In this document: positions 1 through 4,783 of the stretch, one piece after another
Layout: each line of letters opens with the position of its first letter
Numbering within the stretch: the first letter of the stretch is position 1
Assembly (NCBI GenBank): GCA_000004985.1
Contig: GG739173.1
Origin: Naegleria gruberi
Taxonomy: Eukaryota
Reading direction: 5' to 3' (one strand)
Length of the DNA stretch: 4,783 nucleotides
Position numbers and translations under genes: made by a program
The notes under the pieces: model-generated
What the model saw: only the letters and a program-made list of their open reading frames with translations
Databases searched by the model: none
Told to the model about the DNA's origin: nothing

Positions 1-53
1 AGATGTATTTAGTATTAATGCATACAACAATACCTTATCAAGCTTATTTTTAG

Positions 54-439
54 AATACTTGCATCCTGATATTCCAATAGCAAAAGCAATTAAGAATTAC
101 CATACTCAATTTGCCTCATTATTGACATTGGTGTTTGAAAAAAACGTTAAAATAATTCAAGCTGAATTGGAGAAGGAAAAACAAAGTTTAGATTTAAACA
201 TCAACAACTCAAAAAGGCTTGAAAAAATTGAACAAATGTTAAATCTTACCAAATCACAGAAAGAAAAAGAATATCTTTGTTTGTTTAAGGAAATATGTAA
301 CAAACACAACTACCCTCATATTTCTGACGTTCAACGTTATTCCATGTTTCATTTAAGCTTAGATGGACCTTTTGTTCCAACAACAGAAGATCCTTATGAA
401 CAGTACGATCAATCAGATGATGAAATGGAAAATCTCTAA
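54..439 (+). CDS. Terminal coding exon of an unidentified protein. The C-terminal region is predicted coiled-coil (ELEKEKQSLDLN...RLEKIEQMLNL) followed by an acidic tail (EDPYEQYDQSDDEMENL). The exon is partial: the gene continues upstream of the window.
   Basis: The frame is open from nt 2 to TAA at 437-439. A strong acceptor (cttatttttAG, AG at 52-53) sits after 53 nt of 24% GC intron-like sequence, so the exon probably starts at 54 in phase 1. AATAAA lies 12 nt after the stop. The amino-acid composition is protein-like and not low-complexity. The tool's 'start' at 59 is TTG, not ATG. Confidence 0.5.
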
Positions 440-450
440 CATATTTTGTA

Positions 451-456
451 AATAAA
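451..456 (+). terminator. Canonical polyadenylation signal AATAAA for the upstream + strand gene
   Basis: The hexamer aataaa at 451-456 lies 12 nt downstream of the TAA stop at 437-439. Confidence 0.5.
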
Positions 457-948
457 AGAAATCGAATTTTCTATCATTACTCTTATTCACATACGAGAAG
501 TGATACTCTTTATACAACACGAATTAATAAAAAAGAGATTGGAAAAAACTAAAAGACCACAACACGACAACTTAAATGTTTCGATAGTAAACACACAAAA
601 TAAAGTTCAAATAATATTTAGACAATTGGGTATAAAAGCTCAGGGGCTGAACCACCTTAATGGTGAAACAGCCTGGAACCTGCTTTGAAGGATGTAAATC
701 TTTATTGAGCAGGTCCCGAGATAATTAAAATTTGTCTGTAAAAAAAAACTTATCAATAGTTGACCTAAGGATAAGAAAAAAACATCAGACCAGCGATAAA
801 TGTGAACTTAGTAGTACCGTTTGGTGGTTTAGTGTGTTTCTCGATCTAAATTCGAGTTTGAATATAATTTTTGTACATTTTCACAATTTATTTTGTTGTT
901 ATATGAGAATTGATTTTTTGTATTTTATTTTTTTGATAAATTATTGGG

Positions 949-951
<3 letters not shown>

Positions 952-979
<28 letters not shown>
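952..979. repeat. (AT)14 dinucleotide microsatellite
   Basis: A perfect 28-nt at/ta run is seen directly in the sequence. Confidence 0.95.
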
Positions 980-982
<3 letters not shown>

Positions 983-1020
983 AACAAAAATTATATTTAT
1001 CTATGTTAGAAAAATCATTT

Positions 1021-1135
1021 CCCTTTTATTCTTCATCATGCTCCTCCTCATGTTTTTTACACATCCTGTCTTTATCAAATCCCATTCTCACTACATCCTT
1101 TTCATCATAATTCCTCGCAAATTCATTTATCTGTT
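1021..1135 (+). repeat. Strand-asymmetric C/T-rich, G-depleted low-complexity tract. It is about 75% pyrimidine with about 5% G on the + strand.
   Basis: Base counts over 1021-1140 give only about 6 G in 120 nt, against about 30% C. It is built from tcctc, catc and ctcat-like short motifs. Confidence 0.6.
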
Positions 1136-1497
1136 CAGATTACATTTATTTACCCCTTAAAAGTGATTTTCCATTCTTCATTTTACATGAGTTTTTCGGT
1201 GATTTCTTGGTAAGAACTCTTTATTAGTAGACTTTTTGTATTTCATTTTGTTCTGTCAATAGATTTCACATATTATAACAAAAGGTTGAGCATTTGTTAT
1301 TACAATGTCTGATAATGTGTGTCTTTTGTTGCCTGTTTGAATTGGCCGTAATAACATTTTAAGGTAATAGAAACTTGAGTATGATGAGTAATACCATGAA
1401 TATATATTGTATTTCCTTTAGAATCTAGTAATTTGGTTACCTTGGTAAGTCAAGTGTTGTATATTTTCGCTTTATTAGTTGTAAATGACATTTGAGA

Positions 1498-1501
<4 letters not shown>

Positions 1502-1543
<42 letters not shown>
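1502..1543. repeat. (AT)21 dinucleotide microsatellite
   Basis: A perfect 42-nt at run is seen directly. Confidence 0.95.
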
Positions 1544-1546
<3 letters not shown>

Positions 1547-1961
1547 AGAAAAATTTATCAAGTGTGTAGTAAAATTAATTTGAGTGTAATAAATCTTTAT
1601 ATGAAAAGCTATAAAAAGTACTTTCTTTATTAGAGATCAAGTTATCGGCGTTAATTGTCTTAAAAATCAATGTTGTTAAACAACTTCAATCATATTTATT
1701 AGAATCTTGATGATACAATTTTTTAGACATACCATGTTTACCATTTAATATCGAGTAGTAAAAATATGTAAATTAAAAAAAGGAAAAAATGTTGAGTTTT
1801 GGTATTTTTTTAAAAAATGTTTTTTTGAAAAAAATTTCGATAAAAACTAGAAATTTATTAGTATTTCAATGAAAAATACGAATTTTCATACATGCGTTGG
1901 TGGGATATGTTTGTCATATTAGATATTTAATAAAAATAAAATAAAAATTTTCGCATGCATT

Positions 1962-1987
1962 TATATATATATATATATATATATATA
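1962..1987. repeat. (TA)13 dinucleotide microsatellite
   Basis: A perfect 26-nt ta run is seen directly. Confidence 0.95.
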
Positions 1988-2147
1988 CATCCGAAAAAAT
2001 TTTTGTTGAAAGTTGGTTTATAAGATGGTGGTTAAATTGGTTTATCTGAAAAATCATTTAAAAGTGATTTAAATATAAAGATAATGAAATTAATTGAAAA
2101 TTAAGAAGCTAAAATAAATTTTCAAAAATTTATCGATTTGAAATTTN

Positions 2148-3630
2148 NNNNNNNNNNNNNNNNNNNNNNNNNNNNNNNNNNNNNNNNNNNNNNNNNNNNN
2201 NNNNNNNNNNNNNNNNNNNNNNNNNNNNNNNNNNNNNNNNNNNNNNNNNNNNNNNNNNNNNNNNNNNNNNNNNNNNNNNNNNNNNNNNNNNNNNNNNNNN
2301 NNNNNNNNNNNNNNNNNNNNNNNNNNNNNNNNNNNNNNNNNNNNNNNNNNNNNNNNNNNNNNNNNNNNNNNNNNNNNNNNNNNNNNNNNNNNNNNNNNNN
2401 NNNNNNNNNNNNNNNNNNNNNNNNNNNNNNNNNNNNNNNNNNNNNNNNNNNNNNNNNNNNNNNNNNNNNNNNNNNNNNNNNNNNNNNNNNNNNNNNNNNN
2501 NNNNNNNNNNNNNNNNNNNNNNNNNNNNNNNNNNNNNNNNNNNNNNNNNNNNNNNNNNNNNNNNNNNNNNNNNNNNNNNNNNNNNNNNNNNNNNNNNNNN
2601 NNNNNNNNNNNNNNNNNNNNNNNNNNNNNNNNNNNNNNNNNNNNNNNNNNNNNNNNNNNNNNNNNNNNNNNNNNNNNNNNNNNNNNNNNNNNNNNNNNNN
2701 NNNNNNNNNNNNNNNNNNNNNNNNNNNNNNNNNNNNNNNNNNNNNNNNNNNNNNNNNNNNNNNNNNNNNNNNNNNNNNNNNNNNNNNNNNNNNNNNNNNN
2801 NNNNNNNNNNNNNNNNNNNNNNNNNNNNNNNNNNNNNNNNNNNNNNNNNNNNNNNNNNNNNNNNNNNNNNNNNNNNNNNNNNNNNNNNNNNNNNNNNNNN
2901 NNNNNNNNNNNNNNNNNNNNNNNNNNNNNNNNNNNNNNNNNNNNNNNNNNNNNNNNNNNNNNNNNNNNNNNNNNNNNNNNNNNNNNNNNNNNNNNNNNNN
3001 NNNNNNNNNNNNNNNNNNNNNNNNNNNNNNNNNNNNNNNNNNNNNNNNNNNNNNNNNNNNNNNNNNNNNNNNNNNNNNNNNNNNNNNNNNNNNNNNNNNN
3101 NNNNNNNNNNNNNNNNNNNNNNNNNNNNNNNNNNNNNNNNNNNNNNNNNNNNNNNNNNNNNNNNNNNNNNNNNNNNNNNNNNNNNNNNNNNNNNNNNNNN
3201 NNNNNNNNNNNNNNNNNNNNNNNNNNNNNNNNNNNNNNNNNNNNNNNNNNNNNNNNNNNNNNNNNNNNNNNNNNNNNNNNNNNNNNNNNNNNNNNNNNNN
3301 NNNNNNNNNNNNNNNNNNNNNNNNNNNNNNNNNNNNNNNNNNNNNNNNNNNNNNNNNNNNNNNNNNNNNNNNNNNNNNNNNNNNNNNNNNNNNNNNNNNN
3401 NNNNNNNNNNNNNNNNNNNNNNNNNNNNNNNNNNNNNNNNNNNNNNNNNNNNNNNNNNNNNNNNNNNNNNNNNNNNNNNNNNNNNNNNNNNNNNNNNNNN
3501 NNNNNNNNNNNNNNNNNNNNNNNNNNNNNNNNNNNNNNNNNNNNNNNNNNNNNNNNNNNNNNNNNNNNNNNNNNNNNNNNNNNNNNNNNNNNNNNNNNNN
3601 NNNNNNNNNNNNNNNNNNNNNNNNNNNNNN
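2148..3630. other. Assembly or scaffold gap of 1,483 N. The sequence is unknown.
   Basis: An uninterrupted run of n. The non-round length suggests an estimated gap size from scaffolding. Confidence 0.99.
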
Positions 3631-3632
3631 AA

Positions 3633-3843
3633 CCTCTCGATTTACCTTCAGATAATGAAATTATTGGACTCTCTGCTGGCCAAAATATTTCATTGGCCAT
3701 GACTATTGCTCACGAAATATTCATTGCTGGATCATTTATGGGAACTATAGATGTTTGGAGAAAGATTGTGGAGATTGATTTTTCACCTCAATCAATCTTT
3801 GATGCTTATATTATTTATAATGATGTTTACATTCTTTCTACCA
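3633..3843 (+). CDS. Internal coding exon whose 5' end is lost in the gap. It encodes an unidentified protein (...LPSDNEIIGLSAGQNISLAMTIAHEIFIAGSFMGTIDVWRKIVEIDFSPQSIFDAYIIYNDVYILST). It includes a hydrophobic, possibly membrane-spanning stretch.
   Basis: A 70-codon open frame runs from the gap edge and ends exactly at a consensus donor cca|GTAAGT (GT at 3844-3845), phase 1. The two other + frames hit stops within about 25 codons. The opposite-strand frame is open for only about 27 codons. Confidence 0.5.
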
Positions 3844-3889
3844 GTAAGTTATTTTAGAGAATTTTTTATTCGATTATGGAAAATAATAG
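3844..3889 (+). other. Putative 46-nt intron (GTAAGT...AATAG)
   Basis: The first AG that allows an intron of at least 40 nt (3888-3889) is in exactly the phase that continues into the only long open downstream frame. A 46-nt length is typical of nematode-like compact genomes. Confidence 0.4.
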
Positions 3890-4104
3890 TGGAATACGCC
3901 GTGTTTTCGAATAATAATCGAAAGGTGGTCAAGATTCAAAGCATCAACGGAATGGAAAGCTGTGCTCCCTCATTAAAATATGTAGTGTGGCATGACGAAA
4001 TTCTATTCTATTCGGATATTGATATCATTCCAAAACATTTTATTTATAAATTCAATGAAAAATTGAATTTTAATGATGTGGACATGATTTGCCAAATGTA
4101 TTGA
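3890..4104 (+). CDS. Putative last coding exon of the same + gene (…M EYAVFSNNNRKVVKIQSINGMESCAPSLKYVVWHDEILFYSDIDIIPKHFIYKFNEKLNFNDVDMICQMY*)
   Basis: It is phase-compatible with the 3843 donor (a|tg gives Met). It is the only frame open after 3890 (70 codons) and ends at TGA 4102-4104. No canonical AATAAA follows on the + strand, which is a weakness. Confidence 0.35.
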
Positions 4105-4113
4105 TTGTAACAG

Positions 4114-4119
4114 TTTATT
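4114..4119 (-). terminator. AATAAA polyadenylation signal on the - strand for the convergent - gene
   Basis: The plus-strand tttatt at 4114-4119 reads aataaa on the - strand, 5 nt after the - strand TAA at 4125-4127. Confidence 0.3.
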
Positions 4120-4124
4120 GCTTT

Positions 4125-4302
4125 TTAATGGCATATCTGTTGATGGGGATGGCTTTTGATGGTTCCAGTTAAAGAATTCCTGAATGACATAGTCAGTTCC
4201 GTGACCAGAGGACTTGGTAATGACAGAGACTGGAATGTTTGTAATTGGAGCAAAGGAAATCTTGGATGTGTAGCCAAAGATCTTTTCCTCATACAAATCA
4301 AC
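4125..4302 (-). CDS. Putative last exon of the - strand gene in the splice-consistent frame (R LICMRKRSLATHPRFPLLQLQTFQSLSLPSPLVTELTMSFRNSLTGTIKSHPHQQICH*). The frame is ambiguous: see findings.
   Basis: The acceptor ttcactttccaatcactgttattggtgcttctcttAAG|G (AG at 4304-4303) is the first AG downstream of the 4367 donor. The phase-2 donor plus this acceptor gives this frame, which ends TAA 4125-4127 immediately followed by AATAAA. The peptide is S/L/P/T/Q-rich and tail-like, whereas the overlapping frame (ORF 4003-4347) looks more globular. Confidence 0.3.
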
Positions 4303-4367
4303 CTTAAGAGAAGCACCAATAACAGTGATTGGAAAGTGAATTTTCAATCATCCATATTGAAGCTTAC
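4303..4367 (-). other. Putative 65-nt intron on the - strand (GTAAGC...CTCTTAAG)
   Basis: The - strand reads ...tat gtt ag|gtaagcttcaat...ctcttaag|g. The donor matches the AG|GTAAGT consensus and is followed in frame by TAA, so the exon must end here. A long pyrimidine tract precedes the AG. Confidence 0.45.
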
Positions 4368-4726
4368 CTAACATATGTAGCATTTAAAGAAAGGCAGAAT
4401 TGCTGAAGTGGTTGTGACAATACTGTACTCTTACAATACCCTGTTGAAGGCTCGTAAACCCAAGTCTTCATCAGTTTGAAATTATTGAAAATGGTATAAT
4501 TGTCAGCTATTGGTTCAATGAAACAAGCATCAATTCTCATCATTCCAACTTCAAAATCCACATATATGATTTGAGTATCAATAAAATCCTTGTTCAATCC
4601 GAAAGCTCTGACTTGGGCAGCAAAACCAAATGTAAATGCAAAGTTCTTGATAATAATATTAGAAACATTATTTATTACTTTCACTTTCCACTTGTTCAAC
4701 TCCAACACGAGTAATCGCGCCAAATC
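4368..4726 (-). CDS. Internal coding exon of an unidentified - strand protein (…DLARLLVLELNKWKVKVINNVSNIIIKNFAFTFGFAAQVRAFGLNKDFIDTQIIYVDFEVGMMRIDACFIEPIADNYTIFNNFKLMKTWVYEPSTGYCKSTVLSQPLQQFCLSLNATYV-). It looks like a beta-rich globular domain.
   Basis: A 119-codon open frame with complex, protein-like composition and GC elevated to about 37-40%. In-frame TGA/TAG at 4732-4727 sit immediately 5', with ...gattttaggaagctgatAG|gat giving a phase-0 acceptor at 4727/4726. A consensus donor lies at 4368/4367. There is no ATG near the 5' end, so it is internal and the gene continues beyond the window end. Confidence 0.55.
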
Positions 4727-4783
4727 CTATCAGCTTCCTAAAATCTCTAATAAAAAATCTACAAAATGCATCCGTATCCAAAT

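What the first reader, a model, noticed from the sequence alone, without database searches (positions are those of the whole stretch)
1..4783. The window is eukaryotic nuclear DNA (compact AT-rich invertebrate-type), not a prokaryotic accessory region
Several independent signals are seen directly. There is an N-run scaffold gap. There are three (AT)n microsatellites. Coding density is under 30%. Exon-sized open frames are bounded by GTAAGT/GTAAGC donors and polypyrimidine-AG acceptors. Introns are 46 and 65 nt. AATAAA follows stop codons. Nearly all 'start codons' in the ORF track are TTG, as expected when a bacterial ORF finder runs on exons. Any search for operons or defence systems here would be misdirected.
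Basis: partly seen in the sequence, partly recalled or inferred. Interest (0 to 1): 0.5.

Follow-up and report, generated by a model that had tools for sequence, protein, structure and literature searches.

The report
Naegleria gruberi amoeba nuclear DNA scaffold

Summary
The "invertebrate/nematode-type" guess is wrong. Two window-encoded peptides match predicted proteins of Naegleria gruberi NEG-M (Discoba, Heterolobosea). Window 2..439 matches XP_002682284.1 at 144/145. Window 3633..3857 matches XP_002671747.1 at 74/74. A 98-99% identical metagenome contig (L001) continues through the NEG-M neighbours NAEGRDRAFT_52706/52707/52708 in the same order.

- **Confirmed:** the N-run (2147..3630) and the three (AT)n arrays.
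- **46-nt intron (3844..3889):** likely real. It has GTAAGT..TAG ends, preserves the frame, and has 20% GC against 32-33% in the exons. It carries an indel and a SNP, while both exon-2 SNPs are synonymous. The reference gene model does not splice it.
- **65-nt intron (4303..4367):** unresolved. It joins to the shorter of two overlapping frames, has no GC dip, and lies in an unannotated stretch that carries 262-nt and 4-nt indels between alleles.
- **TTG starts and "coding under 30%":** weak or definition-dependent. AATAAA sits near three of four stops, but the motif is abundant throughout the window.
- **Scaffold join:** the two sides of the N gap map to different NEG-M scaffolds (941 kb and 304 kb), so the join is probably an artefact.

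The finding is ordinary and of low interest.

The parts
2..442 (+). 3' end of the CDS (145 codons plus TAA stop at 440-442) of the orthologue of N. gruberi NAEGRDRAFT_45720 (XP_002682284.1), a protein of unknown function
   Evidence: 144/145 identity to P0006. 100% identity to P0005, and window 1..541 equals L002 998..1538 at 100% nt. Codon-usage log-odds +0.24 to +0.27 per codon in this frame only. No Pfam family.
443..2146 (.). AT-rich non-coding spacer (24.5% GC) carrying three (AT)n microsatellites at 952-979, 1502-1543 and 1962-1987
   Evidence: All six frames have negative coding scores and many stops.
625..735 (.). GC-richer island that folds into three hairpins. It may be an unannotated small RNA or a MITE-like element. 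Unidentified.
   Evidence: MFE z-score -4.4 on the + strand and -3.8 on the - strand. For 560-900 the z-score is -5.2. No Rfam family and no tRNA.
2147..3630 (.). Scaffold gap of 1484 N. The join is probably artefactual.
   Evidence: The flanking genes lie on different NEG-M scaffolds, 941,567 bp and 304,373 bp. L001 runs 4.7 kb leftward from window 3631 without meeting window 1..2146.
3633..3843 (+). Exon of the RCC1-like repeat gene, orthologue of NAEGRDRAFT_52706 (XP_002671747.1, residues 269-338)
   Evidence: 74/74 identity to P0008, including the 4 read-through codons. On the full-length orthologue Pfam RCC1 scores 36.5 bits (cut-off 21.7) and PDB hits include UVR8, HERC2 and RPGR RCC1-like domains. 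Coding score +0.29 to +0.43 per codon.
3844..3889 (+). Probable 46-nt spliceosomal intron (GTAAGT...AATAG), not spliced in the reference gene model
   Evidence: Frame preserved across 3843/3890. GC is 19.6% against 33.2% and 32.1% in the flanks. A 3-nt indel and a SNP against L001 lie inside it. The exon-1 frame hits TAG 5 codons into it. The reference model P0008 ends ...STSKLF, which is read-through.
3890..4104 (+). Probable terminal exon of the RCC1-like gene (71 codons plus TGA at 4102-4104), absent from the reference model
   Evidence: 70 codons open in the joined frame (chance about 0.009). Coding score +0.17 to +0.19 per codon. Both SNPs against L001 (3945, 3948) are synonymous third-position changes. 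No Pfam support for this part.
4105..4667 (-). Stretch between two convergent genes, with exon-like GC (33-38%) and overlapping ORFs on both strands. It is either an unannotated, structurally polymorphic orphan gene or a pseudogene. The upstream ORF frame is open from 4723 to 4369.
   Evidence: ORFs of 119 and 114 codons, chance about 3-5e-4 each. Coding score is +0.28 per codon for 4526-4667 but about 0 for 4147-4525. There is no ATG upstream of 4546 in that frame. L001 lacks 4264..4525 and has +4 nt at 4158. The only database hit is L001's own ORF P0001. Pfam Ependymin scores only 16.6 bits against a cut-off of 32.3. The GTAAGC donor joins to frame 1 (stop at 4125), and a weak GTTAGG donor at 4372 would join to frame 0. 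The SNP phases conflict.
4668..4783 (-). Last 37 codons plus TAA stop (4670-4668) of an eEF1A-like GTPase gene (end of domain III)
   Evidence: On L001 the same ORF extends to 155 aa. It matches Pfam GTP-eEF1A_C (41.3 bits, cut-off 27) and PDB eEF1A/aEF1A chains at E about 4e-9. Coding score +0.16 per codon in this frame.

Best explanation
The window is a small two-contig scaffold of nuclear genomic DNA from the free-living amoeboflagellate Naegleria gruberi (Discoba, Heterolobosea). The strain is about 98-99% identical to the sequenced NEG-M strain and was most likely picked up in a metagenome or mixed-culture assembly.

- **Left contig (1..2146):** it holds the 3' end of the NAEGRDRAFT_45720 orthologue, followed by 1.7 kb of AT-rich spacer with three (AT)n microsatellites.
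- **Right contig (3631..4783):**
  - the 3' part of the RCC1-like gene NAEGRDRAFT_52706, probably with a 46-nt GT-AG intron and a terminal exon that the reference model misses;
  - a 560-nt stretch with polymorphic, unannotated ORFs;
  - the last 37 codons of a convergent eEF1A-like GTPase gene.
- **N gap:** it joins regions that lie on different scaffolds of the reference genome, so the join is most likely a scaffolding artefact.

Shown: species-level identity, gene identities, repeat and gap coordinates, and the conflict over the scaffold join. Inferred: splicing of the 46-nt intron, the coding status of 4105..4667, and the provenance of the sample.
For: - **Direct matches to NEG-M:** window 2..439 is 144/145 identical to N. 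gruberi XP_002682284.1. Window 3633..3857 is 74/74 identical to XP_002671747.1.
- **Contig L001:** this ENA metagenome contig (sample ERZ929261) is 98.1-99.2% nt identical to window 3631-4262 and 4526-4783.
  - It continues into a Flavodoxin_2 gene whose 90%-identity cluster is represented by XP_002671683.1 (NAEGRDRAFT_52707).
  - It then continues into an LRR-PI3Ka gene matching XP_002671748.1 (NAEGRDRAFT_52708), with 10 mismatches and one 24-aa gap over 918 aa.
  - The three locus tags (52706-52708) are consecutive on one 304-kb NEG-M scaffold.
- **Contig L002:** from the same sample, it equals window 1..541 at 100%.
- **Taxonomy:** Eukaryota; Discoba; Heterolobosea.
- **Published figures:** the N. 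gruberi assembly is 40.9 Mb, 35% GC, 784 scaffolds from 1977 contigs. The related N. lovaniensis has a median intron of 80 bp (PMC6125883). These fit an AT-rich, short-intron, gapped scaffold.
- **No prokaryotic or viral signal:** there are no exact matches in GTDB genomes. There are no blastn matches in phages or plasmids and no relatives in IMG/VR. There is no Shine-Dalgarno enrichment, no terminator-like site, and promoter-like sites are below shuffle expectation.
- **46-nt intron:**
Against: - No nucleotide alignment to the NEG-M assembly itself could be made, because it is not in any searchable collection (searches found nothing on record).
- The window differs from NEG-M in gene (a) by T to I and by a stop where NEG-M has E followed by EHVQ. 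It is therefore not the reference strain.
- Overall GC (28.3%) is below the published 35%, because half of the non-N sequence is spacer.
- The 46-nt intron is not in the reference annotation and has no homology support.
- The gap join could reflect a real rearrangement in this strain rather than an artefact.
Confidence: 0.93

Rival explanations
1. One reading: nuclear DNA of a compact AT-rich invertebrate such as a nematode.
For: Short introns with GTAAGT-type donors, (AT)n microsatellites, an N gap and low GC are generic eukaryotic features. Some nematodes share them.
Against: Every identifiable gene is 96-100% identical to Naegleria gruberi proteins, with conserved gene order. No animal protein appeared in searches of 5.8 billion clusters and 1.84 billion representatives.
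Confidence: 0.01
2. DNA of a giant virus of amoebae, or an endogenous viral element inside the Naegleria genome. Such DNA is AT-rich and densely coding, with a divergent eEF1A-like translation GTPase, LRR and RCC1-like proteins and orphan ORFs.
For: L001 is about 93% ORF-covered at 32.6% GC. The eEF1A-like domain is divergent, at E about 4e-9 to eEF1A. Several ORFs are orphans.
Against: The genes are annotated chromosomal genes on 304-kb and 941-kb NEG-M scaffolds. No relatives were found in 2.9 million IMG/VR contigs. There is a spliceosomal-type intron and long microsatellite-bearing spacers. No viral hallmark gene is present.
Confidence: 0.02
3. Bacterial, plasmid or phage DNA that merely looks eukaryotic.
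For: The Flavodoxin_2 neighbour on L001 is closest to bacterial NAD(P)H-FMN oxidoreductase and to a KefC chain (fused, name truncated) in the PDB. This hints at an old lateral transfer into Naegleria.
Against: There are no matches in phages, plasmids or 185,579 GTDB species genomes. There are no Shine-Dalgarno motifs upstream of ORFs. The ORFs are interrupted, and the genes are of eukaryotic type (RCC1 repeats, PI3K accessory domain, eEF1A-type domain III).
Confidence: 0.005
4. The scaffold is correct. In the source strain, the region downstream of the NAEGRDRAFT_45720 orthologue really lies about 1.5 kb from the 3' part of the RCC1-like gene, through a strain-specific rearrangement.
For: Gap sizes of this kind are estimated from read pairs, so some pairs linked the two contigs. 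N. gruberi strains show structural polymorphism even within this window (262-nt and 4-nt indels).
Against: NEG-M places the two genes on different scaffolds. L001 comes from the same sample as the 100%-identical L002. It continues from window 3631 through the intact RCC1-like gene, 52707 and 52708 for 4.7 kb without any window 1..2146 sequence. A breakpoint would have to truncate the RCC1-like gene.
Confidence: 0.08

Closest known systems
Naegleria gruberi strain NEG-M nuclear genome (Fritz-Laylin et al. 2010, Cell 140:631; figures as tabulated in PMC6125883)
   Same: Proteins are 99-100% identical for the window-encoded parts of NAEGRDRAFT_45720 and 52706. The order 52706-52707-52708 is conserved on the near-identical contig L001. 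The genome is AT-rich, with short introns, dense genes and N gaps in scaffolds.
   Different: The window is not the reference strain. It has a T/I substitution and an earlier stop in 45720. L001 carries an extra 24-aa LRR unit in 52708, and indels occur in the 4105..4667 stretch. The window joins two regions that are on different NEG-M scaffolds.
Reference gene model NAEGRDRAFT_52706 / XP_002671747.1 (342 aa, RCC1-like repeats)
   Same: Identical sequence up to and including the read-through tail ...YILSTSKLF.
   Different: The window evidence favours splicing of a 46-nt intron and a further 71-codon exon. That would give a protein of about 410 aa rather than 342 aa. The reference model stops inside the putative intron.
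ENA metagenome assembly ERZ929261 (run ERR1078381, PRJEB11402), contigs k127_393125 (L002) and k127_214743 (L001)
   Same: L002 is 100% identical to window 1..541. L001 is 98-99% identical to the right contig.
   Different: Against the window, L001 has 8 SNPs, a 3-nt intron indel, a 4-nt insertion and a 262-nt deletion. This is consistent with a second allele or a co-occurring strain. L001 contradicts the window's gap join.
Ependymin-related (LolA-like fold) secreted proteins, Pfam PF00811
   Same: There is a weak profile match (16.6 bits, E 0.009) over about 44 residues of the ORF at 4368..4667, with a hydrophobic signal-peptide-like stretch upstream.
   Different: The score is well below the gathering cut-off of 32.3 bits. 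There is no PDB hit even at E<=10, no start codon, and the frame is ambiguous. This is a lead only.

Membership tests
Naegleria gruberi nuclear genome | Near-identity of encoded proteins to N. gruberi NEG-M proteins | tested here: met
   144/145 to XP_002682284.1 and 74/74 to XP_002671747.1. The neighbour on L001 has 10 mismatches and one 24-aa gap over 918 aa against XP_002671748.1.
Naegleria gruberi nuclear genome | Conserved gene order with the reference scaffold | tested here: met
   L001 carries the orthologues of NAEGRDRAFT_52706, 52707 and 52708 in that order, and all three lie on one 304,373-bp NEG-M scaffold. This was tested on the 98-99% identical contig, not on the window itself, which is cut by the gap.
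Naegleria gruberi nuclear genome | Nucleotide-level alignment to the NEG-M assembly, and location on nuclear rather than mitochondrial or rDNA-plasmid DNA | not testable with these tools
   The assembly is not in any searchable collection. Nuclear location is inferred from host scaffold sizes of 304 kb and 941 kb.
Spliceosomal GT-AG intron (3844..3889) | GT...AG boundaries with a consensus donor, and removal restores one open frame | tested here: met
   GTAAGT...TAG, 46 nt. The joined frame is open to TGA at 4102.
Spliceosomal GT-AG intron (3844..3889) | Non-coding evolutionary and compositional signature relative to the flanking exons | tested here: met
   GC is 19.6% against 32-33%. One indel and one SNP fall in the 46 nt. 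The 426 exon nt carry 2 SNPs, both synonymous. The sample is small.
Spliceosomal GT-AG intron (3844..3889) | Spliced transcripts or a spliced reference annotation | tested here: not met
   Reference model XP_002671747.1 reads through and stops inside it. RNA-seq could not be examined.
Spliceosomal GT-AG intron (4303..4367, minus strand) | GT...AG boundaries joining two coding frames, with a non-coding signature | tested here: inconclusive
   The boundaries AG|GTAAGC...CTTCTCTTAAG| are present. The intron joins to the 64-codon frame rather than the 114-codon frame. There is no GC dip (33.8%). L001's 262-nt deletion links the other frame. The SNP phases favour frame 1 or the opposite strand, and coding scores are about 0.
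Prokaryotic or phage accessory region | Contiguous ORFs with Shine-Dalgarno motifs, sigma-70 promoters or intrinsic terminators, and similarity to bacterial or phage DNA | tested here: not met
Invertebrate (nematode) nuclear genome | Best matches to animal genes | tested here: not met
   The only named matches are N. gruberi. The lineage is Discoba.
RCC1-like repeat protein (Pfam PF00415 / PF25390) | RCC1 repeats above the Pfam gathering score | tested here: met
   PF00415 scores 36.5 bits against 21.7 on the full-length orthologue from L001, with the match running to residue 303, inside the window-encoded part. PF25390 scores 74 bits, below its whole-domain cut-off of 150.
Ependymin (Pfam PF00811) | Profile score above gathering | tested here: not met
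   13.2-16.6 bits against a cut-off of 32.3. No PDB match.

The most novel reading that the evidence does not exclude
The window shows small, unrecorded details of a known genome.
1. The reference model NAEGRDRAFT_52706 is truncated. It misses a 46-nt intron and a 71-codon terminal exon.
2. Between two convergent genes lies an unannotated, structurally polymorphic ORF set. It may be a decaying ependymin-like secreted-protein gene that lacks a start codon.
3. A strongly structured GC-rich element of about 110 nt at 625-735 may be an undescribed Naegleria small RNA.
Probability: 0.45. Interest if true: 0.15.

Novelty: already known. Interest (0 to 1): 0.1.

Why it matters
The value is practical. 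The window should be excluded from any search for operons, defence systems or mobile elements of prokaryotes. It flags protist DNA in the source dataset, with N. gruberi contigs also present in ENA assembly ERZ929261. It also shows that taxon guesses from composition and intron size alone can be far off: "nematode-like" was proposed and the organism is a heterolobosean amoeba. The by-products are minor. They are a probable annotation error in one N. gruberi gene, a probable mis-scaffold, and an unidentified structured element.

Tried and rejected
**Searches that found nothing**
- Exact-DNA scans of GTDB genomes (two patterns), JGI metagenome contigs and IMG/VR.
- A protein-pattern scan of JGI metagenomes for the RCC1-like protein.
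- IMG/VR scans for the 4105..4667 ORF product and for the eEF1A-like fragment.
- blastn against phages and plasmids.
- The look-up of encoding contigs for the NEG-M proteins and for window ORFs, so neither the NEG-M DNA nor the window's own source record could be fetched.
- The ENA sample and project accessions in the paper library.
- Rfam and tRNA scans, which gave only sub-threshold microRNA-like hits on the (AT)n arrays.

**Tests that were blocked or gave no support**
The LolA/ependymin-fold idea for 4105..4667 therefore could not be tested.
- Pfam and PDB gave no support for the RCC1-like terminal exon.
- The Fritz-Laylin 2010 Cell paper is not held.

**Readings considered and rejected, by reading the sequence and counting candidate intron lengths by hand**
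- An alternative genetic code (ciliate-type). The long standard-code ORFs on L001 argue against it.
- A fusion of the eEF1A-like gene with the downstream ORF through a 46-nt GTGGAA...CAAG intron. The donor is poor, and domain III ends naturally at the stop.
- An extension of the RCC1-like gene into the plus-strand ORF 4156..4371. No frame-compatible GT-AG intron exists.
- The 24-aa difference between L001 and XP_002671748.1 as an intron. It has no GT-AG boundaries and equals 24 aa within the LRR-containing region, possibly one repeat unit.


Full report
**Observation**

The window has 3299 called bases at 28.3% GC and one run of 1484 N at 2147..3630. Three perfect (AT)n arrays lie at 952-979, 1502-1543 and 1962-1987. 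There is no tRNA and no Rfam family.

GTAAG[TC] occurs three times, at 1445 (+), 3844 (+) and 4367 (-), against about 1.7 expected. Two of the three sit exactly at the ends of long open frames. The stated intron lengths of 46 and 65 nt are correct.

- AATAAA occurs 25 times, against about 15 expected. Its presence near three of four stops is suggestive only.
- TTG starts make up 6 of 8 ORFs of 60 aa or more, where 46% is expected from trinucleotide content (p=0.10).
- Coding density is 29.7% of called bases only if 4105..4667 is not counted. Otherwise it is 40-48%.

**What it is**

Pfam gave little for the window peptides alone. A search of 5.8 billion protein clusters with the minus-strand ORF product found one hit, P0001, on a 5960-nt ENA metagenome contig (L001; sample ERZ929261, PRJEB11402).

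L001 is 98.1% and 99.2% nt identical to window 3631-4262 and 4526-4783. It continues leftward through three genes:
- a 343-aa RCC1-like ORF;
- a Flavodoxin_2 gene;
- a 918-aa LRR plus PI3K-accessory-domain ORF.

The 918-aa product matches "predicted protein [Naegleria gruberi]" XP_002671748.1 (NAEGRDRAFT_52708), with 10 mismatches and one 24-aa gap. The other two cluster at 90% or more with XP_002671747.1 (52706) and XP_002671683.1 (52707). All three lie on one 304,373-bp scaffold, so the three genes carry consecutive locus tags there.

The window itself matches N. gruberi directly:
- Window 3633..3857 is 74/74 identical to XP_002671747.1.
- Window 2..439 is 144/145 identical to XP_002682284.1 (NAEGRDRAFT_45720), which lies on a 941,567-bp scaffold.
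- Window 1..541 is 100% identical to a second contig of the same ENA sample, L002.

N. gruberi belongs to Eukaryota; Discoba; Heterolobosea. Its published assembly is 40.9 Mb at 35% GC, with 784 scaffolds built from 1977 contigs. The related N. lovaniensis is gene-dense, with a median intron of 80 bp (PMC6125883).

The window is therefore nuclear DNA of an N. gruberi strain close to NEG-M but not identical to it. In gene (a) it has T where NEG-M has I, and a stop where NEG-M reads E followed by EHVQ.

**Prokaryotic and viral rivals**

- There are no exact matches in GTDB species genomes, JGI metagenome contigs or IMG/VR.
- There are no blastn matches in phages or plasmids.
- There are no viral relatives of two of the products.
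- Shine-Dalgarno-like motifs are at chance level.
- No terminator-like site was found, and sigma-70-like sites number 14 against 23.8 in shuffles.

**The 46-nt intron (3844..3889)**

Evidence for:
- It has GTAAGT...TAG boundaries.
- The exon-1 frame hits TAG five codons into it.
- Removal gives one frame that stays open to TGA at 4102.
- GC is 19.6%, against 33.2% and 32.1% in the flanks.
- Against L001 it carries a 3-nt indel and a SNP. The two SNPs in the downstream exon (3945, 3948) are both synonymous third-position changes.
- The downstream exon has a coding score like bona fide Naegleria CDS (+0.17 to +0.19 per codon).
- Seventy open codons there have a chance of about 0.009.

Evidence against:
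- The reference protein XP_002671747.1 ends ...YILSTSKLF, which is unspliced read-through.
- Pfam and PDB alignments stop at residue 303 and lend no support to the extra exon.

I consider the intron probably real (about 0.75) and the reference model probably truncated.

**The 65-nt intron (4303..4367, minus strand) and the stretch 4105..4667**

The last 37 codons at 4783..4671 belong to an eEF1A-like GTPase. It ends naturally at TAA 4670-4668.

Downstream, on the same strand, a frame is open from 4723 to 4369. A second frame is open from 4347 to 4003, and a third from 4319 to 4125. The plus strand is also open from 4156 to 4371.

Only a weak GTTAGG donor at 4372 (70 nt) would join the longer frame.

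The evidence conflicts:
- L001 lacks 4264..4525 and thereby links the first frame to the longer frame. It also carries +4 nt at 4158.
- Three SNPs (4182, 4239, 4263) share one codon phase. They are non-synonymous first positions in the longer frame. In the plus-strand ORF all three are synonymous.
- Coding scores are clear only for 4526-4667 (+0.28 per codon) and are about 0 elsewhere.
- There is no ATG upstream of 4546.
- The putative intron shows no GC dip.
- There is no N. gruberi protein in the same 90% cluster and no other homologue.
- Pfam Ependymin is sub-threshold at 16.6 bits, and there is no PDB match.

The GC of 33-38% is exon-like, and the long ORFs are unlikely by chance (3-5e-4). 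My best reading is an unannotated, fast-changing orphan gene or a pseudogene. The junction 4368/4302 is not verified.

**The gap**

The two flanks belong to different NEG-M scaffolds. L001 runs 4.7 kb past window 3631 through intact genes without meeting any left-contig sequence. The estimated 1.5-kb join is therefore most likely a scaffolding artefact.

**Verdict**

This is eukaryotic nuclear DNA, and operon or defence-system searches here are misdirected. The taxon is a protist, not an invertebrate. The finding is ordinary and already known, and interest is low. RNA-seq for N. gruberi exists (PRJEB23822, PMC6142364) and would settle both junctions.

Noticed in passing
window 625-735 (context 560-900): A GC-richer island in the AT-rich spacer folds into three stable hairpins. 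The z-score is -4.4 on the + strand and -3.8 on the - strand, and -5.2 for 560-900. There is no Rfam or tRNA match. It may be an undescribed Naegleria small RNA or a MITE-like element. By eye, the minus strand ends in a TTTT run.
   Followed up: partly
window 2147-3630 (N gap) and its flanks: The two sides of the gap carry orthologues of genes on different N. gruberi NEG-M scaffolds (941,567 bp and 304,373 bp). The near-identical contig L001 contradicts the 1.5-kb join. This is a probable mis-scaffold.
   Followed up: yes
window 3844-4104; NEG-M protein XP_002671747.1 (P0008): The reference gene model NAEGRDRAFT_52706 stops at a read-through TAG inside what looks like a 46-nt intron. A 71-codon terminal exon with synonymous-only SNPs seems to be missing from the annotation.
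   Followed up: partly
window 4264-4525 and 4158; L001 613 and about 717: Against the metagenome contig L001 there is a 262-nt deletion and a 4-nt (AACC) insertion inside the unannotated ORF stretch. Open frames are kept on both strands across the deletion. This suggests allelic or strain-level structural polymorphism in a low-constraint region.
   Followed up: partly
L001 about 5600-5670 (minus-strand CDS codons 97-120 of the 918-aa ORF): L001 encodes one extra 24-aa unit (LTGITIDSALFPLKLTSLSLYSCN) in the LRR-containing N-terminal region, relative to N. gruberi XP_002671748.1. The segment has no GT-AG boundaries, so it is a repeat-copy difference or a non-canonical gene model, not an intron.
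   Followed up: partly
L001 2285-2908: The Flavodoxin_2 gene next to the RCC1-like gene (NAEGRDRAFT_52707) is closest to bacterial NAD(P)H-FMN oxidoreductase and to a KefC chain (fused, name truncated) in the PDB (E 1e-28 and 7e-23). It has at least two further N. gruberi paralogues in the same 90% cluster. It may be an old bacterial acquisition that has expanded in Naegleria.
   Followed up: no
window 4668-4783 and L001 3-470: The eEF1A-like GTPase is very divergent from canonical eEF1A, at only E about 4e-9 over 145 aa of domains II-III. It is a paralogue (HBS1-, eRF3- or GTPBP-like, or other) rather than the translation elongation factor itself. The subfamily was not determined.
   Followed up: no
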